From positions 1 through 39,537 of IMG/VR virus record IMGVR_UViG_3300020469_000101: a DNA stretch of 39,537 bases. The stretch is one strand, 5' to 3'. This document shows positions 23,065 to 38,567 of the stretch, in pieces. The position numbers and the translations under genes are program-made. Every line of letters starts with the position of its first letter. Within the stretch, counting starts at the first letter, position 1. The notes under the pieces are model-generated. The model was given only the letters and a program-made list of their open reading frames with translations, was not told where the DNA came from and ran no database searches. Source of the stretch: a virus (lineage: Duplodnaviria; Caudoviricetes).

Positions 23065-24327
23065 ATGAACCACGATTACAAAATTGAAGATTTATTAGAA
23101 GCACTTGTAGGATTAACAGTCCTGCCGGGTAAGCATTGGAAAGATAAATGCTTTCAATTACATGTTGACAACTCAAAAGTATTAAACAGTATTGGACATC
23201 AAGTGTTCAAAGGTTCTGCACTAACACAAAAGCAACATGCACTTGTTAAGAAATTACTGCTTGAGTATTACACTGAACAGTTTACAGAACAAGGTATTGA
23301 TATCACTAAACACGTTGATCAAATTAGAGAGCCTTATAGAAATGTAGACAAAAGTCATTGGGTTAAGTTTACACCAACTTCAAACGGTACCTTTGTAAGC
23401 ATTAGATTTCCTTTTAGTAATCAAGTTATTGAACACCTTAACGATCTTAAAAATAATGATCTAAGTAAAGATGAATACTTCTATGAAAAACATACGCACA
23501 ACTTTTTGGCAACTGAACAGAATGTTTATAAAGTTGTAACTATTGCAAATAAATTTAAAGAACAGTTTGATGTTGACACAGACGTACAATTATATTATAA
23601 TGAACTTGTAGAATTTACTATGAATAAAGATAAGATTATTCCAGGCATATATGAAAATGAATTTAAAAATATGAGTAGTAGTTTAGCAGAAAAGTTGTCA
23701 GCAAGATATAATAACCCTAACGAGTCACTACTTGAACTTTGGGATAGACGTTACTTGTACGGACTACATCGTTTTCCAGACTTTACATTCCCCCAGGATC
23801 TTACAACGTTGACACACAAGTTATTAGATAGAAAAAATAGTTCAGTGTTTATTAGATCAACAGAATGGACATTGAATCAAGTATTAGAATCGTTAAATGA
23901 ACTAAACAGGTTTCCGTGTATTATGCTCATTGATCCTGACGTGGCATCTGATCATTTAAGTATGATTTATAATGCATGTAACGGGTTTTTAGCAAACGAA
24001 GAAATATCCGTTATGTTTAGATTGGACAACAAGACCAATGGTGAATTTAACCAATTCATCAGGGATAAGGGATTAAATAATAATATAAGCAGTAAGACAA
24101 GACTTGTCGTTGCTAATCGTAAGAAGATAACAAAGCCTATTATAAAGTCTAATTGGGAACCAGTATGTGTACTATCACTTGGTGACTCAAGAGGTTCACA
24201 CTCATACGCAAGAGAGTACGTAGAAAGATTTGATTTGAAATTATTTTGGACAGTAGAAGACAGTATGATATCAACATACACAAGACACCGTGACACAACA
24301 TACACAACAGGAGTGCAGACTATATGA
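23065..24327 (+). CDS. Hypothetical protein coupled to uvsW
   Basis: 420 aa, AGGA SD, ATGA overlap with the helicase; no recognisable motif. Confidence 0.8.
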   Translation: MNHDYKIEDLLEALVGLTVLPGKHWKDKCFQLHVDNSKVLNSIGHQVFKGSALTQKQHALVKKLLLEYYTEQFTEQGIDITKHVDQIREPYRNVDKSHWVKFTPTSNGTFVSIRFPFSNQVIEHLNDLKNNDLSKDEYFYEKHTHNFLATEQNVYKVVTIANKFKEQFDVDTDVQLYYNELVEFTMNKDKIIPGIYENEFKNMSSSLAEKLSARYNNPNESLLELWDRRYLYGLHRFPDFTFPQDLTTLTHKLLDRKNSSVFIRSTEWTLNQVLESLNELNRFPCIMLIDPDVASDHLSMIYNACNGFLANEEISVMFRLDNKTNGEFNQFIRDKGLNNNISSKTRLVVANRKKITKPIIKSNWEPVCVLSLGDSRGSHSYAREYVERFDLKLFWTVEDSMISTYTRHRDTTYTTGVQTI

Positions 24328-25784
24328 GCAGTTGTAGAATAGTAATACACGATGAAGTTAACTTTAAAGTTGAAAACTTGTCTGTTGATGTACGTAGAAA
24401 GATTGCGAATAAGTTAAAGTTTCAAGTTCCGTATGCACGTTACTTGCCACAATACAAGTTAGGTCGTTGGGACGGAACTGTAGGATTCTTTGGCTTAGGC
24501 GGCAGTGGTTACATTAATCATCTTGATGTTGTACTGCAAGTATTAAATGAACAAGGTGTTGAAGTTGCAGAAATTACAGACAACAGAGAAACACACAATT
24601 TAAAATTTAGTAAGATCGATGAAAACTATTTTGCGGCAAAGAGTTGGCCTAAGGGACATCCAGCAGAAGGTGAACCTATTGTATTACGTGACTATCAAGT
24701 AGAAACAATTAACAACTTCTTAGATAATCCACAAGCACTACAAGAGGTTGCAACTGGTGCAGGTAAAACTATTATTACTGCTTGTCTATCACACATTACA
24801 GAGAAACTTGGTCGGACGTTAGTTATTGTTCCTAACAAATCACTTGTTACACAAACAGAAGAAGACTATGTTAACTGTGGATTAGACGTAGGTGTATACT
24901 TTGGTGATAGAAAAGAATTAGGTAGAACACATACTATTTGTACTTGGCAAAGTTTAAACATACTTGACAAACGTAACAAAGATGGACAAAGTGTTTTAAG
25001 TCTTGCAGAGTTTTTAGATGATGTAAAAACTATTATTATTGACGAAGTACACCAAGCAAAAGCAGAAGTACTTAAGAAACTACTAACACAAAATTTAAAG
25101 AATGCTCCGTTACGTTGGGGACTAACAGGAACAATACCTAAGGAACAATTTGAGTTTCAAAGTATTCTTGCAAGTTTAGGTCCTGTCATTGGTAACATCA
25201 GTGCAAAAGAATTACAAGACAAAGGTGTATTGAGTAAGTGTCATGTTAATGTATTACAAATGATTGACACACAAGTACACAGGGATTATCAAAGCGAACT
25301 AAAATATCTAACAACAGACGAAGGTCGTTTAGAATATATTGGTAAGTTAGTAGGCACAGTTTCAGAATCAGGTAACACACTGATACTTGTTGATAGAATA
25401 TCAGCAGGTGAAAAATTATTAAGTCTTCTTCCAGAGGCAGTGTTCGTCAAAGGCGATGTTAAACTTGCAGATAGAAAAGACGCATACGATGAAATTAAAG
25501 AAGGTACGAACAAAATTATTATTGCAACATATGGTGTTGCGGCTGTGGGTATTAACATACCACGTATCTTTAATTTAATACTACTCGAGCCAGGCAAGAG
25601 TTTTGTCCGAGTGATTCAATCAATTGGCAGAGGCATACGAAAGGCACAAGACAAGGACTTTGTACAGATATGGGACATTACGTCCACATGCAAATATGCA
25701 AAGAGACATTTAACATCACGTAAGAAGTTTTACAAAGAAGCAGAATATCCGTTTACGATTGAAAAAGTAGATTGGCAAAAATAA
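24324..25784 (+). CDS. uvsW: SF2 DNA helicase UvsW
   Basis: LRDYQ, ATGAGKT, DEVH, GLTGT, GINIP, QSIGRGIR motifs. Confidence 0.93.
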   Translation: MSSCRIVIHDEVNFKVENLSVDVRRKIANKLKFQVPYARYLPQYKLGRWDGTVGFFGLGGSGYINHLDVVLQVLNEQGVEVAEITDNRETHNLKFSKIDENYFAAKSWPKGHPAEGEPIVLRDYQVETINNFLDNPQALQEVATGAGKTIITACLSHITEKLGRTLVIVPNKSLVTQTEEDYVNCGLDVGVYFGDRKELGRTHTICTWQSLNILDKRNKDGQSVLSLAEFLDDVKTIIIDEVHQAKAEVLKKLLTQNLKNAPLRWGLTGTIPKEQFEFQSILASLGPVIGNISAKELQDKGVLSKCHVNVLQMIDTQVHRDYQSELKYLTTDEGRLEYIGKLVGTVSESGNTLILVDRISAGEKLLSLLPEAVFVKGDVKLADRKDAYDEIKEGTNKIIIATYGVAAVGINIPRIFNLILLEPGKSFVRVIQSIGRGIRKAQDKDFVQIWDITSTCKYAKRHLTSRKKFYKEAEYPFTIEKVDWQK

Positions 25785-25794
25785 AGGAAACTAC

Positions 25795-26301
25795 ATGAAT
25801 ATATTAACATTAGATAATAAAGCCTTTTCACTTAACAACCTGCCAGAACAGATTGAAGAAGATATTAGATTCAGTGTATTAGATAATGCGGATCCAAAAA
25901 ATCCGGATTTCTTTTTTATACCTCTAATATTTTTAGAAAGTTTTAGTTCTCCGGCGATTGTTATGGAGATTAATGGTAAAGAAATTAGTATGCCACTTGA
26001 CTGGCATATTGCAGTAGGAGACTCCGAGACTGGAAACGATCTCGAGATTCTACCACTAACAAGTATTAACGACAGAGGATTTGAAGCATTTGTTTTTAAT
26101 CCACTAAAGAGTTACAAGCCAGACTTTGGAAGTTTAAAAGTTACAAACTTCTATAATGATGTTAAATGGCATGTACCTAAAACTAAGAACGGACAATTAT
26201 TAAGTGTACCAATTGAAGACGGACCTAATCCATTGTGTGCATTTTTTATTAAAGATGTATCAAGACAAATTGAAACAATTGACTATGGAGAACTATTTTA
26301 A
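25795..26301 (+). CDS. Hypothetical beta-rich protein
   Basis: 168 aa, AAGGA SD, directly after uvsW. Confidence 0.8.
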   Translation: MNILTLDNKAFSLNNLPEQIEEDIRFSVLDNADPKNPDFFFIPLIFLESFSSPAIVMEINGKEISMPLDWHIAVGDSETGNDLEILPLTSINDRGFEAFVFNPLKSYKPDFGSLKVTNFYNDVKWHVPKTKNGQLLSVPIEDGPNPLCAFFIKDVSRQIETIDYGELF

Positions 26302-28966: not shown

Positions 28967-29541
28967 AAGTAAGTCCATTAAATATTTTTGATATTGAGAA
29001 TCCATTTCCAGAATGGCTTGTACAGTATATTGAAGATCAAACTAAAGATGTTAATTGGCAGTTTGTAAGTGTACCGCCAGAACACGAAGACGGAGACAAA
29101 TATAAAACTCCTGCACTGTTTACTGATGTTATGTTCTGTACACAAAGCAACATACTCGATGATCACAAAGAACTTACAAAGTTATTGCACACTGCATTGA
29201 CTCGTGATATTATTCCTAATACAATCCCAGATGCAGAGATTAATCAAGTAACACGTACAAGACTTAATGGTACAGTACAAAACGTTTACTATGGCCCACA
29301 CACTGATGTAAGCAACAACGAGCCCGGACTATGGACATTTGTTTACTATGTTAATGATGCAGACGGTGATACAATCTTCTTTGAAGAAGATGGCAAGACA
29401 GAGTTAACAAGAACAAAATACAAACGAGGAAATGCTGTTCTATTTCCTGCACACTATTGGCACACTATGGACTTGACTACGGTTCCGTTTCGTGTTACAA
29501 TAGGTATGACATATTCAATAGAGACAAAACTAAATGGCTGA
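28963..29541 (+). CDS. 2OG-Fe(II) oxygenase
   Basis: PHTD, YYVNDADGDT, LFPAHYWH, RVTI. Confidence 0.85.
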   Translation: MKVSPLNIFDIENPFPEWLVQYIEDQTKDVNWQFVSVPPEHEDGDKYKTPALFTDVMFCTQSNILDDHKELTKLLHTALTRDIIPNTIPDAEINQVTRTRLNGTVQNVYYGPHTDVSNNEPGLWTFVYYVNDADGDTIFFEEDGKTELTRTKYKRGNAVLFPAHYWHTMDLTTVPFRVTIGMTYSIETKLNG

Positions 29542-29980
29542 TAGATTACCTTTAAAAGATATACTTGGTGCAATCGATATGAATGCAAAAGATGTATGGG
29601 ACGAACTTACTGATGAACAACGTAAGTCTGTTAGTTTCTTTTTGCTTAATAGATATTGTAGTGTAGTTAAAGGTAAACGTGAAGCACAAGAACTTTCAGT
29701 ATTCAAAACTAATGAATATTATAACAAGAACTATTTTACTATTGCAAAACATCAGAAACTATTGTGGCAACTACTTTGCATGACAGCAAACGAAAACAAG
29801 TCTATTCAGTATCATGAATGGATAGGTTACAAAAAGAAAAAAGGTGCTACTAATAAATCAGGTAAAGAACTTGAAAAGATATTTCCTAACATGAAAGCAG
29901 ATGAAATACAAATGTTAGTTAGTATGAATAAGAAGAAAGATATAGAAAAATTTATAGAGGAATTCAATGGGCATAATTAA
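29534..29980 (+). CDS. Probable clamp-loader small subunit (T4 gp62-like)
   Basis: Size and pattern (L.AID, FLLNRYCS, N...N, H..L.W.L, HEWI..KK) recall gp62-family proteins; replication neighbourhood. Not verified. Confidence 0.5.
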   Translation: MADRLPLKDILGAIDMNAKDVWDELTDEQRKSVSFFLLNRYCSVVKGKREAQELSVFKTNEYYNKNYFTIAKHQKLLWQLLCMTANENKSIQYHEWIGYKKKKGATNKSGKELEKIFPNMKADEIQMLVSMNKKKDIEKFIEEFNGHN

Positions 29981-30779
29981 AAAGAACGGAAGACTGTTTA
30001 CATTTGGTTGTAGCCTAACAAGATATCACTGGCCTACATGGGCAGATATCTTAGGACAAAGTTATGCTGAGTTTTACAACTGGGCTAACAGAGGTGCTGG
30101 CAATAGACAGATTATGGAACGGTTTAGTGAAGCATGTTTACGTCATGACTTTACAACTGAGGACACAGTTATTGTACAATGGACTGACTATCATAGATTT
30201 GATCATCACAAGAGTGATCCAGACTTACCTGAGAGTTGGTATCCGGGCGGCAACATATTTGTTGATAATCAAGCAGATCAGATTAAAGGCTTTGTAATGA
30301 ATAAGTTGTGGGACGAACGTTCGTATATGATGCACTCGTTTAACTCTATACACGCCGCAGTAGCACTTGCAAGAACTATTAAAGCAAGAGTAGTTTTTAT
30401 ATTTGGTACTGACATGCGAGAACATTTATTACATGATCCGTATTGGGCACCTTACAAAAAGATTTTACAAAACAGTTATTGGATTGAAAAGGATTTATAT
30501 AACTGGATGGTACAGATGCATGATAAACGTTTATCGTTCAAAGGTGCAAAGTTAGGTAACTTAGATGAGGAACCTACATTAGATTATCACCCAACGCCAA
30601 TGATGTATTATGAATTCCTAATGAAACGCATTTCACCATTGTTAGGTGTAGGGATTGATAAAAAGTTTGCAGGCAAATATCAGAAAGTATTAGAGGCTAC
30701 AGATGACTACAAAGATATCGGAAAAGCAATTCTTGAAGCAGGTTACGATACAAATAAAAGATACGCAAGGGGTTACTAA
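29967..30779 (+). CDS. SGNH-hydrolase-like protein
   Basis: FGCSLT (block I-like), GAGN (block II), VQWT, DYHP (block V-like). Confidence 0.55.
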   Translation: MGIIKKNGRLFTFGCSLTRYHWPTWADILGQSYAEFYNWANRGAGNRQIMERFSEACLRHDFTTEDTVIVQWTDYHRFDHHKSDPDLPESWYPGGNIFVDNQADQIKGFVMNKLWDERSYMMHSFNSIHAAVALARTIKARVVFIFGTDMREHLLHDPYWAPYKKILQNSYWIEKDLYNWMVQMHDKRLSFKGAKLGNLDEEPTLDYHPTPMMYYEFLMKRISPLLGVGIDKKFAGKYQKVLEATDDYKDIGKAILEAGYDTNKRYARGY

Positions 30780-30780
30780 C

Positions 30781-31464
30781 GTGTCAGATAAAAAGTTCGT
30801 ATGTCAATATTGCAATACAGCATACACAAGAGAAAAAACTCTTATGGTGCATATGTGCGAACAAAAACGTAGAGCATTACAAAAGAACGAGAAACGTGTA
30901 CAGTTAGGCTTTTATGCATTTACAAGATTCTATGTACTGTGTCAGAACGTTAAGAAAGAAAAGACTTATGAAGAATTTTGTAAGTCATCATACTATAACG
31001 CATTTGTAAAGTTTGGATCATTTGTAAACAATGTGCGTCCGTTATACCCAGAGAAGTATATTGACTATGTAGTAACAAGCGGAGTCAAACTTGATCATTG
31101 GTGTAGAGATGAACTGTATGAAAAATACGCAATTGGTATCTTAAAGAAAGAAGGTGTTGAAACAGCAGTAGAACGTTCAATCAAAACTATGATGGATTGG
31201 GGAGATGACCAAGAAGCACAATGGAATGATTATTTTAGATATGCAAGTCTTAACAGAGTAACGCAACATTTACGTGATGGTAAGATTAGTGCATGGCTTG
31301 TATTGAATTGTGCAAGTGGTAAAGAGATGTTATCAAAATTTAATGATGAACAACTTGGGATTGTATATGCTGTAATGGATCCACAGCATTGGGCATTACG
31401 TTTTAAACGTAGTCCAACAGACGTAGAATTGGTAAAAGAAATAGCACAAAAGGCTAACTTATGA
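30781..31464 (+). CDS. Hypothetical protein with N-terminal C2HC zinc finger
   Basis: FVCQYCNTAYTREKTLMVHMC; GTG start at 30781 follows the upstream stop and AAGGGG. Confidence 0.7.
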   Translation: MSDKKFVCQYCNTAYTREKTLMVHMCEQKRRALQKNEKRVQLGFYAFTRFYVLCQNVKKEKTYEEFCKSSYYNAFVKFGSFVNNVRPLYPEKYIDYVVTSGVKLDHWCRDELYEKYAIGILKKEGVETAVERSIKTMMDWGDDQEAQWNDYFRYASLNRVTQHLRDGKISAWLVLNCASGKEMLSKFNDEQLGIVYAVMDPQHWALRFKRSPTDVELVKEIAQKANL

Positions 31465-31493
31465 TTGACAAAGACGAAGAAAAACTGTATAAT
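31465..31493 (+). promoter_or_regulatory. Consensus sigma70 promoter
   Basis: TTGACA(31465-70)-N17-TATAAT(31488-93); ATG 6 nt downstream at 31500. Confidence 0.9.
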
Positions 31494-31499
31494 ATAACT

Positions 31500-31835
31500 A
31501 TGAACACACAAAACAATAATGAAATGATAGTGTCAAACCATGTTGGTGTTGACGGAGAAAGTGTAGATAGAATCTATGGAGACCCTAATAGTGGCAAGTA
31601 TAGATTAGTTCAAAGAGACTACACTACCTATAAAGGAACCATTAATAAAAAAATGACTATGGTCAAAGGTACAGACGGTAATCGATTTAAGAGTCATGTG
31701 TTTGTTACACAAGATGATAGATGGTTTGATAGAGGCGGTTTGCCTATCACTAAACCAAACAATTTAGCAAATGAAACAGAAACAAAAGAAACAAAAGAAG
31801 AAGAAAAAAGTAGTATCGAAAAAGCGAGTGACTAA
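31500..31835 (+). CDS. Hypothetical protein
   Basis: Start moved to 31500 because the first 13 codons of the called ORF are the promoter itself; Glu/Lys-rich tail. Confidence 0.7.
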   Translation: MNTQNNNEMIVSNHVGVDGESVDRIYGDPNSGKYRLVQRDYTTYKGTINKKMTMVKGTDGNRFKSHVFVTQDDRWFDRGGLPITKPNNLANETETKETKEEEKSSIEKASD

Positions 31836-31905
31836 AAGAGAAATCGAAGGATACTACATTCCAGGAGATGGTACAATACAAACATTGTACAAACCCAAAT
31901 GGTAA
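31828..31905 (+). CDS. Possible 25-aa micro-protein
   Basis: GTG-start ORF (MTKREIEGYYIPGDGTIQTLYKPKW*) overlapping both neighbours. Confidence 0.35.
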   Translation: MTKREIEGYYIPGDGTIQTLYKPKW

Positions 31906-31991
31906 TACTATACGGAATAATATTTCTATGTGTGTGTTACGCAATACCCGTATTCATGCTATGGTGCATGGACAAGGAAGAGCCTAAATAA
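31899..31991 (+). CDS. Possible 30-aa single-TM protein
   Basis: MVILYGIIFLCVCYAIPVFMLWCMDKEEPK*; ends 1 nt before the dnaE-fragment ATG. Confidence 0.5.
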   Translation: MVILYGIIFLCVCYAIPVFMLWCMDKEEPK

Positions 31992-31992
31992 A

Positions 31993-32553
31993 ATGCCTGA
32001 TATTGATATAGACTTTGCTGATAGAAACGTAGTGCTTGATAAGATTAAGCATCGTGTCGCTAAACTTGACACAGGCAAAAAACATAACACAGGTGTATAC
32101 ACAACTGAGGTTCCACACAATCCTGTGGACAACTTATCTACAATCGAACACAAGACTGCAGAAGAGCGAGGATATTTTAAATTAGACTTCCTCAACGTTT
32201 CGATATATAAAGATGTACAAGATGAAGCACATCTTATTAGACTCATGAAGAAGGAACCATTATGGGATTTACTAACCGCTCCAGAATTCAGCAAACAATT
32301 ATTTCACGTAGGAGAACACAGTTACCTCCTAAGCAAACTAAAGCCAACAACGATACCGCAGTTAGCGGCAGTGCTGGCGATCATAAGACCAGCGAAGAGA
32401 CATCTACAAGACCATGGCTGGGAACAGATACTACAAGAGGTGTGGGTAAAACCTGAAGACGGTTCCTACTACTTTAAGAAAGCACACGCAATGGCGTATG
32501 CCCAAGCAATCGTAGTTCATATGAACTTGCTCTGTGAGCAAATCCAAAAGTAA
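31993..32553 (+). CDS. Minimal DNA polymerase III alpha (DnaE/family C) catalytic fragment
   Basis: MPDIDIDF, HNTGVY, GYFKLDFL, LAIIRP, YYFKKAHAMAYA match DnaE motifs PDxDxDF, HAxGV, KxDFL, RPG, YxFNKSHAxAY, all within 186 aa. Confidence 0.85.
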   Translation: MPDIDIDFADRNVVLDKIKHRVAKLDTGKKHNTGVYTTEVPHNPVDNLSTIEHKTAEERGYFKLDFLNVSIYKDVQDEAHLIRLMKKEPLWDLLTAPEFSKQLFHVGEHSYLLSKLKPTTIPQLAAVLAIIRPAKRHLQDHGWEQILQEVWVKPEDGSYYFKKAHAMAYAQAIVVHMNLLCEQIQK

Positions 32554-32922
32554 TTATTTAGGCTTTTTTACTAATTGTACAGAACGTCTTTTCACTCTCT
32601 TGAGTGTAAGGTTCTTTAAGTTCACAGTTGGCCCGTGAACGATCTTTACGTCTTTACTGTTCATGTTAACCAATGCGTATCTAAACTTATCCATCTCTTT
32701 TCTCAAAAAGATGTTGATAGGGATCATGCGGTTACTTTCCCACCACCATGTTTCACCCATCTCTAAGAACACTGGTTGATGTCCATCTTGTAACTCTGAG
32801 TAAACGTACATGCTTGTAATAAAGTTATCCTGATTACAAACGATACCTACGTACTCATTGCCACCATATGTAACAACACTTAAAAACGGAAATTTATCTT
32901 CTATGTCTTTTCTTAACATCAT
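32554..32922 (-). CDS. Hypothetical protein
   Basis: 122 aa; FPFLS, WWWESNRMIPINIFL, basic tail; AGGA SD. Confidence 0.8.
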   Translation of the reverse strand: MMLRKDIEDKFPFLSVVTYGGNEYVGIVCNQDNFITSMYVYSELQDGHQPVFLEMGETWWWESNRMIPINIFLRKEMDKFRYALVNMNSKDVKIVHGPTVNLKNLTLKRVKRRSVQLVKKPK

Positions 32923-32926
32923 ATCC

Positions 32927-32934
32927 TATAAATA
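32927..32934 (+). promoter_or_regulatory. Perfect T4 late promoter TATAAATA
   Basis: TATAAATA-GTTAT-ATG(32940). Confidence 0.8.
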
Positions 32935-32939
32935 GTTAT

Positions 32940-33728
32940 ATGCAACTTATACCCAGATATTTAGTCAATGCCAAAACCACTCTCGTAGCAAATGTGACTA
33001 CGGGCACAACAACGGAGTTAAGACAAGTGTACCAGAAAAACTTAAAAATTTTTAAAGGTATCGACAACATGTTGACCTTTGAAATAAAAAACAACGACAG
33101 TAAGCCTATAAGCATACTTAATACGTATACGCCACACTTTACAGCGTTCGATCATGCTAAAACACAAGTGCTTACTAAAATAGGAACAATTAAAGAAACA
33201 TCAACGCCTAACTATAAAGGTCAGTTTGAAGTTAGTATTACTGCAAACGACTTATTAAACTTAGACGATCAGTTACTAACTTATACAATTTACTTGACTA
33301 AGGACAGTGACAACAGTGAAGTACTTACGTATGCTAACACCCACTTTGAGATGATTGGTACCATCGAGTTGCACGGTGAAGCATTCCCTGGACCGAAAGA
33401 CACATACTCCGTTAGTTCTTTCACAGAGATAGAAAACACTGATCCTGTTGAATATAAGAGCGAACAGATCACAGCAGAAGCGGCACGTAATGGTAACGAA
33501 GCATTACATACTGCGGCAATATACTCAACTGACTTTATAGGTACAGTAACTATTCAAGGTAGTTTGGAAAACCAAAATCCAACTAATTGGGTAGACATTA
33601 CAACTGTAAATTTAGAAAATCCAACTGACCCTACTCCAGTTAATTTTAATGGTGTGTTTTCATATTTGAGAACCAAATATACAACAACAAATTCTGGAAC
33701 AATTGATAAAGTATTAGTCCGAAATTAG
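32940..33728 (+). CDS. Probable virion structural protein (beta-rich)
   Basis: Thr/Asn-rich, beta-strand pattern (IFKGIDNMLTFEIKN, GTVTIQGSL...W), late promoter. Confidence 0.6.
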   Translation: MQLIPRYLVNAKTTLVANVTTGTTTELRQVYQKNLKIFKGIDNMLTFEIKNNDSKPISILNTYTPHFTAFDHAKTQVLTKIGTIKETSTPNYKGQFEVSITANDLLNLDDQLLTYTIYLTKDSDNSEVLTYANTHFEMIGTIELHGEAFPGPKDTYSVSSFTEIENTDPVEYKSEQITAEAARNGNEALHTAAIYSTDFIGTVTIQGSLENQNPTNWVDITTVNLENPTDPTPVNFNGVFSYLRTKYTTTNSGTIDKVLVRN

Positions 33729-34720: not shown

Positions 34721-34830
34721 AAACATTGTGGGATAAGATCACTAAACCGATTAGTGATTGGAATGATAAGCGTAGAATGAAAAAGCGGATTGAAGAACTT
34801 AAGAAACGTGATCCTTTCATTTACAAATGA
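34708..34830 (+). CDS. 40-aa basic micro-protein
   Basis: MVWLKTLWDKITKPISDWNDKRRMKKRIEELKKRDPFIYK*; GGAG SD; fills the primase-carbamoyltransferase gap; absent from the ORF track. Confidence 0.7.
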   Translation: MVWLKTLWDKITKPISDWNDKRRMKKRIEELKKRDPFIYK

Positions 34831-34850
34831 GAATGCCTGGAGATAAAACT

Positions 34851-35846
34851 ATGATCATATGGGGTATGGTTGGAAACAGCCACGATGCAAGTTTGGCTGT
34901 GTTCAGAAAGACAGAGAACAAGTTAGAATTGTTATGGGCGGCATTGAGCAAAGACTTCAGTAACGTAGATAATGATCCGCATTTCAATTGGACTATAATT
35001 GAAGTTGCAAGAAAGAACTTTGGTGACCCAGACCAAGTTGTATGGTATGAGAATCCATTTACAAAAAGTCTTAGACAGTTATGGGCTGGACAAGGTTTCT
35101 TGTTTAAAGAAAATAATATTAAAGCATACTTGAAGCAGTGGAACATTGATGTTCCTATTAAGTATGTACCACATCACTTATCACATGCGGCATATGGATA
35201 TTACACAAGCGGTTGGAATCACGGTAACGTAATATGTATTGACAGCATTGGAGAGTTTGAAACACTAACAATGTGGAGAGGTGATGGAGATACATTAACA
35301 AAAATTAGTAGTCAAAGTTATCCTAACAGTTTAGGACTTTGGTATAGTGCAATGACACAACGTTTAGGTTATACACCTAACAAGCAAGAAGCAGTTATTA
35401 GTACGTTAGCAAAGTCAGGTAACCCATACAAGTACAAGCAAAAACTGTATGACGATTTCTTTGAAGTAACATATGATCCATTATGTAAAATTAAATTTAA
35501 AGAGAACTGCCATAGAGGATTAAGATGGTATGCTCCTGAGATTAAGGACATTGACAACCTTGCGGCAAGTGTACAACATGTGTTTGAAGACCTGTGTATG
35601 AAACTTACTACAAGCATACAATACAATAACCCAAGTACCAATCTTGCTGTAACAGGAGGTTGTGCTTTGAACAGAGGCGCAATGGACAAGATTAGAAAGA
35701 ACTGGAGAGGCTTTTGGATACCAACCAATCCAGGTGATCCAGGAAGTTGTATCGGAGCAGTATTGGCTTTGGAGAAGAAACACATTGACTTTGATGAAGA
35801 AATATGGTATAATAATAAGACAAAAAAAGGATTAGCGAATGAATAA
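34851..35846 (+). CDS. Carbamoyltransferase (NodU/CmcH/TobZ family), N-terminal Kae1-like domain only
   Basis: HDAS, HHLSHAA, CIDSIGE, SLGLWYS, AASVQ, GGCALN, PGDPGSCIGA; the ORF ends there. GGAG SD supports ATG 34851. Confidence 0.85.
   Translation: MIIWGMVGNSHDASLAVFRKTENKLELLWAALSKDFSNVDNDPHFNWTIIEVARKNFGDPDQVVWYENPFTKSLRQLWAGQGFLFKENNIKAYLKQWNIDVPIKYVPHHLSHAAYGYYTSGWNHGNVICIDSIGEFETLTMWRGDGDTLTKISSQSYPNSLGLWYSAMTQRLGYTPNKQEAVISTLAKSGNPYKYKQKLYDDFFEVTYDPLCKIKFKENCHRGLRWYAPEIKDIDNLAASVQHVFEDLCMKLTTSIQYNNPSTNLAVTGGCALNRGAMDKIRKNWRGFWIPTNPGDPGSCIGAVLALEKKHIDFDEEIWYNNKTKKGLANE
35785..35813 (+). promoter_or_regulatory. Sigma70-type promoter with extended -10, inside the upstream CDS
   Basis: TTGACT(35785-90)-N17-TATAAT(35808-13), with TG in extended -10 position; upstream of the helicase. 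Confidence 0.82.
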
Positions 35847-37245
35847 AGAATATGGTTATGATGTACAAAAGGTATATCTGCAAATGATGTTGAGCGATGC
35901 ACAATCGTTTGTGCGTTGTCAGACTATCTTTGACCATAGTTTATTTGATCGTAAACTGCAAGACGCGGCAGAGTTTATGAATGCGTATGTTACAGAACAC
36001 AATGCATTGCCTACAGAAGAAATGGTTAATGCAACCTGTCAAACTGATCTTAAGGTTCCTGAAGGACTTAGAGAAGAACACTATGATTGGTTACTGCAAG
36101 AGTTTGAAACGTTTACAAGACACAAAGGACTTGAGAGAGCAATACTTGAAAGTGCTGAACTACTTGAAAAAGGTGAGTATGGTCCTGTAGAAGACAAGGT
36201 CAAGAACGCAATACAGGTAGGACTACAAAAGGACTTAGGTATTAATTACTTTGAAGATCCTAAAGGTAGACTTATGGGATTGAAAGACAACAATGGACAA
36301 GTAAGCACAGGCTGGACAACACTTGATAGAAAACTATTCGGTGGCTTTAACAAAGGTGAACTGAATATCTTTGCAGGTGGATCGGGTGCAGGTAAGAGTT
36401 TGTTCTTGGCAAACTTAGGTGTGAACTGGGCATTGAACGGCATGAACGTTTGTTATCTAACTTTTGAGTTGAGTGAGGCATTGGTAGCAATGCGTGTTGA
36501 CAGTATGTTTACAGACATTCCAACAAAAGAAATATTTAAGGATCTTGATGGAGTTGAAATGAAAGTCAAGATGATTGGCAAGAAGGCTGGAGCATTCCAA
36601 GTCAAGTATATGCCAAGTGGTAAGAATGCAAACGATATTAGAAGTTATTTGAAAGAGTATGAAATTAAAACAGGACGTAAGATTGATGTACTGTTAGTTG
36701 ACTACTTAGACTTGATGATGCCTATGAGTAGAAAAGTATCGCCAAGTGATTTGTTTATTAAAGATAAGTTTGTGAGTGAGGAACTGCGTAACCTTGCAAT
36801 GGAATTAGGTTGTGTGTTTGTAACTGCGGCACAGTTGAACAGAGGTGCAGTAGAAGAAATAGAATTTGATCACTCGCACATCAGTGGTGGCTTGAGTAAG
36901 ATTCAAACTGCTGATAACGTGATAGGTATCTTTACAAGTAGAGCAATGCGTGAACGTGGTAGATATCAAATACAGTTAATGAAGACAAGGTCAAGTAGTG
37001 GAGTAGGTGCTAAGATTGATCTTGAGTTTGACATAGACAGTTTGCGTATTAGAGATTGTGATGAAGATGAAGACACAAACAACTATGCAAGTAGCACAGG
37101 CAGTTCAGTACTAAAAGGTTTACAAAGAACAACTGACACATCGGAACCACCAGAGCCAGATGCAGGTGAAGCAGTTAAGAAAGTAAGAGCAGATACAGAT
37201 AGTACTAAACTAAGACAGTTCATTGGAAACCTTGGCAGTGAGTAG
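35839..37245 (+). CDS. Replicative DNA helicase (T4 gp41/DnaB-like)
   Basis: STGW..LD, GGSGAGKS, TFELSE, VDYLDLM, AAQLNR, TAD, KTRS. Confidence 0.93.
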   Translation: MNKEYGYDVQKVYLQMMLSDAQSFVRCQTIFDHSLFDRKLQDAAEFMNAYVTEHNALPTEEMVNATCQTDLKVPEGLREEHYDWLLQEFETFTRHKGLERAILESAELLEKGEYGPVEDKVKNAIQVGLQKDLGINYFEDPKGRLMGLKDNNGQVSTGWTTLDRKLFGGFNKGELNIFAGGSGAGKSLFLANLGVNWALNGMNVCYLTFELSEALVAMRVDSMFTDIPTKEIFKDLDGVEMKVKMIGKKAGAFQVKYMPSGKNANDIRSYLKEYEIKTGRKIDVLLVDYLDLMMPMSRKVSPSDLFIKDKFVSEELRNLAMELGCVFVTAAQLNRGAVEEIEFDHSHISGGLSKIQTADNVIGIFTSRAMRERGRYQIQLMKTRSSSGVGAKIDLEFDIDSLRIRDCDEDEDTNNYASSTGSSVLKGLQRTTDTSEPPEPDAGEAVKKVRADTDSTKLRQFIGNLGSE

Positions 37246-37783
37246 TGTTACAGTAATAGATGATGTCTTTCCTCAGTGGCTACTAACAACTATACAACAG
37301 AGTATATCAAACTGTAAGCAATGGGAATATGGTAGAGTAAAAAGTGCATACGGTGATGAGTATGAGAACTATTACAACTGTGTACTTTGGCACAAGAACT
37401 ATCCTGAGATGGAAGACCCCTTAAAAGGATTAAGCAATACCATAGCAAGTTGCTTTGCACTTGAACTATTACCCAACGGTCCTAAACAACTTGAAGTACT
37501 GAGAATGAATGGTACTACACCCGCAAGTGAACAATACCCACATCGTGATTGCGATATGATCGCAGATGACACAGAACGATTGAAGAGTATTGTATGGTGG
37601 CCTTTTGGCAGTAGCGGAGATCTTCGCTTCTGGGAACATCAAGTTGACATAGTCAATCCTTCACAGGTTGTGGAGTACAAACCCAATCGTGCTGTGATGT
37701 TTGATTCAAGCATTCCGCATGCCGGTAATCCACCACAAGATTGGCCCATGCGTGTTAGTATTAACAGTGTTTGGAAATTATAA
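37238..37783 (+). CDS. 2OG-Fe(II) oxygenase
   Basis: VIDDVFP, PHRD, KPNRAVMFDSSIPHAG, RVSIN; GTG start overlapping the helicase stop. Confidence 0.8.
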   Translation: MSSVTVIDDVFPQWLLTTIQQSISNCKQWEYGRVKSAYGDEYENYYNCVLWHKNYPEMEDPLKGLSNTIASCFALELLPNGPKQLEVLRMNGTTPASEQYPHRDCDMIADDTERLKSIVWWPFGSSGDLRFWEHQVDIVNPSQVVEYKPNRAVMFDSSIPHAGNPPQDWPMRVSINSVWKL

Positions 37784-37974
37784 AAACAGTCTTTATTAAT
37801 TATCGTGGCTAAAAATTGCCATGTATTTAAGACGTCTTAAGACTATGAAAATCACCCCTATATGGCTCTTAAATGTCGACTTAGTACAATTCGCTGTACA
37901 TTGTAGCTCTTTAGTCTTTTTACACGAGCAACAGCGTTTTAACCAGGTTTAACACACCTATTATAGTAGCAGTT

Positions 37975-37980
37975 TAAATA
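37975..37980 (+). promoter_or_regulatory. T4-late-like box TAAATA
   Basis: TTTAAATA-CACAT-ATG(37986): 5 nt spacer, no SD. Confidence 0.65.
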
Positions 37981-37985
37981 CACAT

Positions 37986-38567
37986 ATGCAAGACTTTATT
38001 AAAACATGGGACAACGAACTTGATACAGAATACTGTCAAACTGTGATTGATTATTACAATCAACAACAAGGTACACGTATACTGAATCGCCAAACTGCAA
38101 ATGAGTCAGCACCAAAAATGAACAAAGACGGTGCCATGCTCTATGACGAAGGGGAGACTGGTACGTTTGCCCTCAGCATGAATAAACTACTACAACCCTA
38201 CTATGATTGCATACACAGATGTGTAGATGATTATGTCAGTGAGTTTGGTATATTTGAAAACGTTAATCCCATACAGTTGAGTCACAGCATTAAAATACAG
38301 CATACTCGTCCCAGTGAAGGATATCACGTATGGCACTGTGAACATGCAAGTAGAGACACAGGACAGCGTGCCATACTTGCAATGGTTTACTTAAACACCG
38401 TTGAACAAGGAGGTGAAACTGAATTCTTATATCAGAGCCGTAGGATTGATGCCCGAGCTGGGCGAGTTATGTTTTGCCCCGCAGGTTATACGCACACCCA
38501 CAGAGGTAATCCCCCACTGAGTGGAGACAAGTACTGCGTAACTACTTGGCTTGAGTTTACACACTAA
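37986..38567 (+). CDS. 2OG-Fe(II) oxygenase (phage prolyl-4-hydroxylase-like)
   Basis: GYHVWHCE, YLNTVEQGGETEF, THTHRGNPP, KY..TTW. Confidence 0.88.
   Translation: MQDFIKTWDNELDTEYCQTVIDYYNQQQGTRILNRQTANESAPKMNKDGAMLYDEGETGTFALSMNKLLQPYYDCIHRCVDDYVSEFGIFENVNPIQLSHSIKIQHTRPSEGYHVWHCEHASRDTGQRAILAMVYLNTVEQGGETEFLYQSRRIDARAGRVMFCPAGYTHTHRGNPPLSGDKYCVTTWLEFTH

What the first reader, a model, noticed from the sequence alone, without database searches (positions are those of the whole stretch)
31993..32553. 186-aa miniature Pol III alpha catalytic core in a T4-like replisome
Seen: all three catalytic Asp equivalents (D3, D5, D65; E. coli DnaE D401/D403/D555) and the fingers motif YYFKKAHAMAY in 186 aa. 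The first and third Asp are 62 residues apart versus 154 in E. coli, so the thumb is cleanly deleted. PHP, clamp-binding, HhH and OB domains are absent, and the protein begins exactly at MPDIDIDF. The GxGRGS half of the palm is not encoded in this window. Motif retention and an upstream consensus promoter argue against a decayed gene. Inference: a split family-C polymerase, or a repurposed nucleotidyltransferase (primer extension, repair, signalling). T4-like phages normally replicate with a family B polymerase.
Basis: partly seen in the sequence, partly recalled or inferred. Interest (0 to 1): 0.75.

Follow-up and report, generated by a model that had tools for sequence, protein, structure and literature searches.

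The report
Back half of split mini-DnaE polymerase
This marine jumbo-phage gene encodes the metal-binding back half of a tiny two-gene version of the bacterial DNA-copying enzyme, a family already described from sequence in 2021; it likely pairs with a front half that relatives encode far away, to form a short-patch DNA polymerase for which I found no bench test.

Summary
The ORF is real and intact. It has thousands of same-length homologues, dN/dS near 0.1 and no indels in four DNA runs, so it is neither decay nor a misassembled dnaE. It is the C-terminal unit of the split minimal Pol III alpha of group 2.2 jumbo phages (Iyer et al. 2021, PMC7824862). The scan found this before on other DNA.

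The missing GxGRGS half is a separate 169-185 aa gene 34-182 kb away in relatives. All 4 complete relatives searched carry both halves plus a family B polymerase. A natural 375-aa fusion of the two halves exists (one record), and the halves co-fold (0.92, best control 0.01; may reflect likeness to solved DnaE).

Residues that touch primer, template and dNTP sugar in E. coli Pol III are kept, favouring a templated DNA polymerase over a signalling nucleotidyltransferase. The likeliest role (inferred) is extending primase primers before hand-off to PolB. New member of a known kind.

The parts
31993..32553 (+). C-terminal unit of split minimal Pol III alpha, 186 aa. D3/D5/D65 = D401/D403/D555; H31 = H511; K63 = K553; R132-P133 = R639-P640; Y159/F161/H165 = Y754/F756/H760
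   Evidence: (phrog_11778, E 6.5e-61)
31465..31493 (+). 12/12 sigma-70-type promoter match, 500 nt upstream. It directly precedes the 111-aa ORF. Read-through to the polymerase half is possible but not shown
   Evidence: no + strand terminator-like site in 31300-33100; RNA contigs of two studies begin at 31514 and 31532, a weak hint
31500..31835 (+). Variable 111-aa ORF between the core zinc-finger gene and the polymerase half
   Evidence: present in 22 of 81 related loci with enough flank
31899..31991 (+). 30-codon hydrophobic ORF whose stop lies 1 nt before the polymerase-half ATG; possible translational coupling
   Evidence: frame open in the 63 nt read from L013/L014; a similar 28-aa ORF sits at the same place in L063
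30703..31464 (+). Core neighbour of unknown function with an N-terminal C2H2-like zinc finger (phrog_11058)
   Evidence: 65 of 65 loci; 93 phage records
32554..32922 (-). Core convergent neighbour, 122 aa, unknown function (phrog_11637)
   Evidence: 76 of 76 loci; 89 phage records
33764..34720 (+). DnaG-type primase
   Evidence: 52 of 53 loci, median gap 1.2 kb
35839..37245 (+). DnaB-like replicative helicase
   Evidence: 23 of 24 loci
24324..25784 (+). SF2 helicase (annotated uvsW in RaK2), start of the conserved block
   Evidence: 37 of 39 loci

Best explanation
The gene encodes the aspartate-bearing C-terminal half of a minimal DnaE-type polymerase that likely binds a GxGRGS-bearing N-terminal half, encoded far away in related phages, to form a roughly 370-residue enzyme predicted to add short, template-directed DNA stretches, most likely onto primase-made primers before hand-off to the phage's family B polymerase. 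SHOWN: an intact, conserved gene under purifying selection; DnaE fold; a separate N-half gene and a PolB in complete relatives; a natural fusion; a fixed place beside primase and helicase. PREDICTED: the two halves bind and rebuild the palm sheet (N-half W150/G151 against C-half I6-F8). INFERRED from E. coli residue mapping: it uses dNTPs (H165 steric gate), reads a template (R132-P133) and binds a primer end (K63, H31); it is slow and distributive, having no clamp-binding, HhH or OB part, no helical thumb, no R390/R396/R709/R710 and no PHP. INFERRED by analogy with B. subtilis DnaE: the primer-extension role. My odds: member of the 2021 family 0.97; halves form one complex 0.9; active templated DNA polymerase 0.75; primer extension as its main job 0.45.
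For: Family and integrity: 8000 of 8000 scored candidates pass E 1e-3, the 120 listed are 185-207 aa; 96 phage records, the 60 listed all jumbo phages or their fragments. dN/dS median 0.108 over 138 usable of 160 non-independent pairs; 0.099 against L013, where primase gives 0.109 and DnaB 0.087. No indels in 4 of 4 DNA runs. Partner: PA5oct gp196. 83 of 83 N-half loci end 35-36 residues after the start of GxGRGS. N-half 75-184 aligns to E. coli 274-392, so the cut falls at 393-399, the border between the static and mobile palm in bioRxiv 10.64898/2026.06.29.735100. Co-occurrence: C half, N half and PolB in 4 of 4 complete records and 7 of 21 searched; PHP in 0 of 21. The fused query gives 188 places in 96 records, two places in 29 of 30 listed rows. 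Fusion P0351, 375 aa: N part 31% to P0123 (E 2e-17), C part 38% to P0001. Co-fold: ipSAE 0.92, best of 3 controls 0.01; the mark was reached by 116 of 157 solved and 2 of 215 mismatched pairs (rough here, own alignments); runs agree in at least 98% of contacts; partner pLDDT 91. Residues in 81 diverse rows: D3, D5, D7, K63, D65, R132, P133 invariant; H31 80, H165 79, K135 74, F161 70, Y159 60. Their roles in E. coli come from passages of the bioRxiv paper and PMC8485763. Role: primase in 52 of 53 and DnaB in 23 of 24 loci; B. subtilis DnaE precedent (abstract of PMC3664799).
Against: No activity has been measured. The window's own N half and PolB were not seen (G000 is an 11%-complete fragment), and the co-fold used the N half of a relative whose own C half is 73% identical. 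The co-fold pass may come from likeness to solved DnaE structures. R390 (27-fold effect in E. coli) is a Glu in all 118 N-half homologues whose end could be parsed, of 120 listed; R396, R709, R710, K714 and K715 fall in the cut or the deleted segment, so catalysis could be weak or absent. G003 (262 kb, 73% complete) has the C half but neither N half nor PolB. The block also holds the UvsW-type helicase (37 of 39 loci) and a virion-annotated gene, and the N-half gene is not near primase, so gene order does not single out priming. T4's own family B polymerase extends RNA primers without a helper (recalled). The fusion is one record of unknown context, and no second one was found.
Confidence: 0.5

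Rival explanations
1. Same two-chain templated DNA polymerase, but its job is gap filling, D-loop extension or lesion bypass in recombination and repair, not primer hand-off.
For: Iyer et al. name repair as an option. The UvsW-type helicase is in the same block in 37 of 39 loci, and UvsX, UvsY and SSB genes lie in the same window. A distributive enzyme without proofreading suits short gaps.
Against: It shares the narrow distribution of three other core genes (96 records against 89, 93 and 90), whereas Iyer et al. describe minor repair enzymes as sporadic. Its nearest named neighbours are primase and DnaB.
Confidence: 0.3
2. The pair has little or no polymerase activity and serves as a DNA-end binding or scaffold protein of the replisome.
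For: Four triphosphate-side arginines of DnaE are not kept in place; most of the index finger is gone.
Against: All three metal ligands and K63 are invariant in 81 of 81 rows, and the GS-motif arginine is invariant in 73 of 73 close N halves. New basic residues K135 (74 of 81) and K/R162 (80 of 81) could replace the lost ones (inference).
Confidence: 0.12
3. A repurposed template-independent nucleotidyltransferase (tailing, nucleotide second messenger, or modification of a protein or tRNA).
For: Pol-beta-type core with most DNA-gripping domains lost.
Against: Residues that contact the templating base (R639-P640), the primer (K553, H511) and the deoxyribose (H760) are retained. No other nucleotidyltransferase appears among the Z >= 5 fold matches listed, all DnaE or related polymerases. 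The context is a core replication block.
Confidence: 0.06
4. A decayed dnaE or an assembly deletion.
For: Short length; no Pfam or NCBIfam hit.
Against: Thousands of same-length homologues, dN/dS near 0.1, the same form in cultured phages, and single contigs spanning the gene without gaps in independent assemblies (e.g. X13 31005-33700 and X6 31306-33700; these runs may be sources of the window).
Confidence: 0.01

Closest known systems
Split minimal DNA polymerase III alpha of group 2.2 jumbo phages, C-terminal Mg2+/template-binding unit (Iyer et al. 2021, Viruses 13:63, PMC7824862); PHROG phrog_11778
   Same: [quoted passage not shown] 51% identical to PA5oct gp264, 48% to Atu_ph07, 42% to RaK2, same gene order.
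   Different: Nothing essential. This copy is from an uncultured marine lineage and has a promoter and small ORFs inserted upstream. The passages I read do not mention a fused form or the lost arginines; the supplement could not be read.
Bacterial DnaE (E. coli Pol III alpha 400-781; Taq 3e0d; M. tuberculosis 7pu7)
   Same: Fold (Z 10.0, rmsd 3.5, 184 aligned) and the catalytic, primer, template and steric-gate residues.
   Different: 186 residues against about 380 for the same span; GS-motif half on another chain; no PHP, helical thumb, most of the fingers, HhH, clamp motif, OB or CTD; R390, R396, R709 and R710 not kept.
Bacillus subtilis DnaE as primer extender for PolC (PMC3664799, abstract); eukaryotic Pol alpha (recalled)
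   Same: Proposed working logic: a second, non-proofreading polymerase extends primase primers and hands over to the main replicase.
   Different: Those are full-length enzymes with shown activity; here the role is only inferred, and the main replicase would be family B.
Intein-split cyanobacterial DnaE (mentioned in PMC3919608)
   Same: DnaE encoded in two genes.
   Different: Those halves are split by an intein; here the N half stops at EFL[RKE] and the C half starts at MPD with no room for intein sequence.

Membership tests
Split minimal Pol III alpha of group 2.2 jumbo phages (Iyer 2021) | Stand-alone C-terminal unit holding the Mg2+-binding aspartates and template-binding part | tested here: met
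Split minimal Pol III alpha of group 2.2 jumbo phages (Iyer 2021) | Separate, distant gene for the N-terminal NTP-binding unit in relatives | tested here: met
   4 of 4 complete records, 34-182 kb apart
Split minimal Pol III alpha of group 2.2 jumbo phages (Iyer 2021) | N-terminal unit and PolB in this very genome | not testable with these tools
   G000 is the 39.5-kb window only, 11% complete; no match
Split minimal Pol III alpha of group 2.2 jumbo phages (Iyer 2021) | Family B polymerase in the same genome | tested here: met
   in relatives: 4 of 4 complete records, 10 of 21 searched
Split minimal Pol III alpha of group 2.2 jumbo phages (Iyer 2021) | No other Pol III domains in the genome | tested here: inconclusive
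   PHP in 0 of 21 records with the control ringing in 14 of 14; HhH and OB not searched; 7 of 80 marine loci carry an extra ~545-aa PHP-less DnaE
Split minimal Pol III alpha of group 2.2 jumbo phages (Iyer 2021) | Host phage belongs with group 2.2 jumbo phages | tested here: met
   best hits and gene order match PA5oct, Atu_ph07, RaK2; Atu_ph07 is named as group 2.2 in the paper; no whole-genome classification run
Canonical bacterial DnaE replicase | Single chain with PHP, full thumb and fingers, HhH, clamp motif and OB | tested here: not met
   186 aa covering E. coli 400-781 with two deletions of 82 and 88 residues
Family C polymerases (works like) | Three catalytic aspartates, K553, H511, R639-P640, H760 steric gate, GS motif | tested here: met
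   (GS motif on the partner chain)
Family C polymerases (works like) | Triphosphate-side arginines R390/R396 and R709/R710 | tested here: not met
   R390 position is Glu; R396 lies in the cut; R709/R710 lie in the deleted segment
Family C polymerases (works like) | Template-directed dNMP incorporation | not testable with these tools
   needs a biochemical assay
Intein-split DnaE | Intein halves at the break | tested here: not met
   83 of 83 N halves stop 35-36 residues after the start of GxGRGS; C halves start at the first aspartate motif

The most novel reading that the evidence does not exclude
Group 2.2 jumbo phages run a two-family replisome in which a roughly 370-residue family C core, stripped of PHP, helical thumb, most fingers and four conserved arginines, acts as the Pol alpha-like primer extender between a DnaG primase and a family B replicase, using a rewired triphosphate site (K135, K162, K163). 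Keeping the halves on differently timed genes would let assembly switch the enzyme on. The natural 375-aa fusion P0351 allows a one-protein test.
Probability: 0.35. Interest if true: 0.7.

Novelty: new member of a known kind. Interest (0 to 1): 0.3.

Why it matters
The gene itself is one more copy of a family described in 2021 and very common in marine viromes. The open question is what that family does. If active, it would define how little of a family C polymerase is needed for catalysis and show a family C and a family B enzyme sharing one fork. It is a core gene of cultured jumbo phages (PA5oct, Paride, RaK2, 121Q), so the question can be tested, and the natural fusion simplifies the assay.

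Tried and rejected
- Single-sequence Pfam, NCBIfam and PDB searches with P0001 gave nothing useful; only profiles and the fold showed DnaE.
- E. coli palm against phage records found full-length phage DnaEs, not the mini N half, among the 60 of 1277 rows listed.
- 'Longer' homologue search gave 2 hits among 1193 candidates, both single short-contig proteins joining part of the C half to unrelated sequence, judged chimeras.
- More fused forms: none in viral or metagenome contigs by peptide patterns. The DNA pattern (AGA-coded Arg only) gave 29, 10 and 2 matches; 0 of 41 was one open frame. 0 of 96 phage records hold a fused form. ESM Atlas lists 355-378 aa clusters with both Pol III families (scores 0.93-0.94): a lead only, they could be ordinary dnaE fragments.
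- The cluster size and source of P0351 remain unknown.
- AlphaFold of the fusion was unusable (pLDDT 49); two mixed alignments misplaced the N halves and were dropped. The first ~75 residues of the N half are therefore unassigned.
- Quick tree only (87 rows, careful search unfinished): the fusion sits inside the family next to stand-alone P0335 (SH-aLRT 97), deeper branches 81-88. This hints at re-fusion but does not fix the order of events, and says nothing firm on Iyer's ancient-relic idea.
- RNA: X15 and X16 cover everything in long contigs and may hold DNA; X19 has one 233-nt piece inside the gene; X17 has none over most of it. Expression is not shown.
- The upstream-coupling count (79 of 80) was too loose to mean anything.
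- Two weak N-half hits were dropped from the 14 (leaving 12 of 21): G012 has stops; G018 is the extra 548-aa-type DnaE.
- Literature searches for a bench test or follow-up returned only Iyer et al. as relevant; one search returned nothing.

Full report
OBSERVATION. The ORF at 31993-32553 (+) gives 186 aa beginning MPDIDIDF, with D3, D5, D65 and YYFKKAHAMAY at 159-169. E. coli DnaE, fetched and translated, has D401, D403 and D555, so the 62 versus 154 spacing is right. Pfam and NCBIfam find nothing; PHROGs gives phrog_11778, DNA polymerase, E 6.5e-61. A profile of 81 rows (the query, 7 close homologues and 73 full-length rows picked from the 150 representatives listed) hits only DnaE chains in the PDB. 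The AlphaFold model (pLDDT 96.5) aligns over its whole length to DnaE: Taq Z 10.0, rmsd 3.5, 184 aligned; E. coli 400-781. The best unrelated row has Z 3.3.

NOT AN ARTEFACT. All 8000 scored candidates were homologues, and the 120 listed are 185-207 aa, 110 of them starting MPDIDIDF. 96 phage records carry it, 94 over at least 80% of its length. Median dN/dS is 0.108 over 138 usable of 160 pairs, which are not independent. Against the 89%-identical relative L013 it is 0.099, beside 0.109 for primase, 0.087 for DnaB and 0.081 for the UvsW-type helicase. Contigs of four DNA runs from four studies cover the gene with no indel; they may include the window's source.

ANATOMY. Anchor distances, E. 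coli against P0001: D401-H511 110/28, H511-D555 44/34, D555-R639 84/67, R639-H760 121/33. The helical thumb is gone, but H31 and a strand pair remain. In a 2026 cryo-EM preprint (10.64898/2026.06.29.735100, passages read) the thumb's two beta strands and H511 contact the DNA. A second cut of 88 residues removes most of the index finger, with R709, R710, K714 and K715. Kept in 81 rows: D3, D5, D7, K63, D65, R132 and P133 in all; H31 in 80; H165 in 79; K135 in 74; F161 in 70; Y159 in 60. In that preprint K553 binds the primer's last phosphate and its loss kills activity, R639-P640 touch the templating base, Y754 stacks on the incoming base, and H760 is the steric gate against rNTPs (also PMC8485763, passages).

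THE OTHER HALF. The window lacks it but is only 11% of its genome. In PA5oct it is gp196, 169 aa, 43 kb away. In marine relatives it is a 185-aa gene (P0123) whose residues 75-184 match E. coli 274-392. 83 of 83 loci end 35-36 residues after the start of GxGRGS, so the cut lies at E. coli 393-399, without inteins. The preprint the part of the palm that stays still on DNA binding. The R390 position is Glu in all 118 parsed of 120 homologues, and R396 falls in the cut. I searched 21 records (18 long IMG/VR contigs, themselves found through one half or the pattern scan, and 3 isolates): C half in 16, N half in 12 after dropping two weak hits, PolB in 10, PHP in none. All three occur in 7, including all 4 complete ones. 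G003, 73% complete, has only the C half.

FUSION AND CO-FOLD. P0351 (375 aa) joins an N half and a C half in DnaE order through a linker of about nine residues. It is one record of unknown context; further searches found no second. Used as a query it gives 188 places in 96 phage records, never fused. P0123 with P0001 co-folds at ipSAE 0.92 against a best control of 0.01; the mark was reached by 116 of 157 solved complexes and 2 of 215 mismatches; contacts agree in at least 98%, partner pLDDT 91. The tightest contacts put the strand before GRGS against I6-F8. The pair is not native, and halves of a split gene can pass by likeness to solved DnaE, so this supports binding and does not show it.

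CONTEXT. The window is a marine jumbo-phage fragment with terminase, SSB, UvsX, UvsY, SF2 helicase, primase and DnaB. Among 80 marine loci and 3 isolates, counting those with enough flank: convergent 122-aa gene 76 of 76, zinc-finger gene 65 of 65, primase 52 of 53, DnaB 23 of 24, UvsW-type helicase 37 of 39. Three unknown neighbours match 89, 93 and 90 phage records of the same hosts, so this is a core block. The perfect promoter match at 31465-31493 precedes a variable 111-aa ORF; in PA5oct the zinc-finger gene abuts the polymerase half. A looser promoter pattern lies within 700 nt upstream in 27 of 79 loci, 10 of them near copies of the window. Expression of the gene is not shown.

MECHANISM. 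Most likely the two chains assemble into a small, distributive, non-proofreading, template-directed DNA polymerase (0.75). I put its main job at extending DnaG primers for hand-off to PolB (0.45), as B. subtilis DnaE does for PolC (PMC3664799, abstract), ahead of gap filling in recombination or repair (0.3). The grounds are core status and position beside primase and helicase; both are indirect. The lost arginines leave an inactive scaffold open (0.12). A signalling transferase is unlikely (0.06).

WHAT IS KNOWN. Iyer et al. 2021 (PMC7824862; passages of sections 3.4.1 and 3.5 and the Figure 3 legend; supplement not readable, and it may list fused members) describe this split minimal Pol III alpha beside PolB in group 2.2 phages and suggest strand synthesis or repair. 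Four searches showed no bench test. Timinskas et al. (PMC3919608, passages) cover bacterial forms only. I reached this reading before opening the scan's notes; they hold the same conclusion for several other windows, fused forms included, which is not independent support.

VERDICT. A real gene and a new member of a known, untested family. Interest 0.3; 0.7 if the primer-extension role is shown.

Noticed in passing
P0351 (protein search): Natural 375-aa single-chain fusion of the N and C halves of the minimal Pol III; genomic context unknown.
   Followed up: partly
L042:18551-20197; also L020, L023, L044, L051, L060, L084: A second, single-chain DnaE of about 545 aa just downstream of DnaB in 7 of 80 marine loci, in addition to the mini C half. 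It starts at the palm (no PHP), keeps the arginine motifs the mini enzyme lost, and has a short C-terminal tail. Best phage-record hit is an uncultured 484-kb phage at 37%; a full-strength match in 1 of 21 long records. The mini gene is kept beside it, which suggests non-redundant jobs.
   Followed up: partly
window 31899-31991 (+): 30-codon hydrophobic ORF ending 1 nt before the polymerase-half ATG; a similar 28-aa ORF is at the same place in L063. A lysine-rich 44-codon ORF (31771-31905) overlaps it and the 111-aa ORF.
   Followed up: partly
window 25795-26301, 29534-29980, 30703-31464, 32554-32922: Four conserved genes of unknown function travel with the C half in almost every locus and in cultured jumbo phages; candidates for accessory subunits. 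No NCBIfam hit, and only a weak zinc-finger hit in Pfam.
   Followed up: partly
L087:1402-1959 (N half, residues 1-75): The N half carries about 75 conserved residues ahead of the palm that do not align to E. coli DnaE; identity unresolved, possibly a PHP remnant or a partner-binding part.
   Followed up: partly
window 7674-29541 and 37223-38567: Many 2OG-Fe(II) oxygenases, glycosyltransferases, methyltransferases, radical SAM genes and a carbamoyltransferase (34827-35846) are interleaved with the replication genes.
   Followed up: no
PA5oct and Atu_ph07 PolB: The family B polymerase matches fall in two open frames in each of these isolates (825 + 379 aa; 578 + 418 aa), against one frame of about 890-1000 aa in the marine contigs and RaK2.
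   Followed up: no
L086 and L087: The N-half gene has its own conserved block in both contigs: a 76-78 aa gene upstream and three similar ORFs downstream (127, 135-136 and 119 aa); RaK2 and Atu_ph07 have the clamp-loader subunit a few genes downstream.
   Followed up: no
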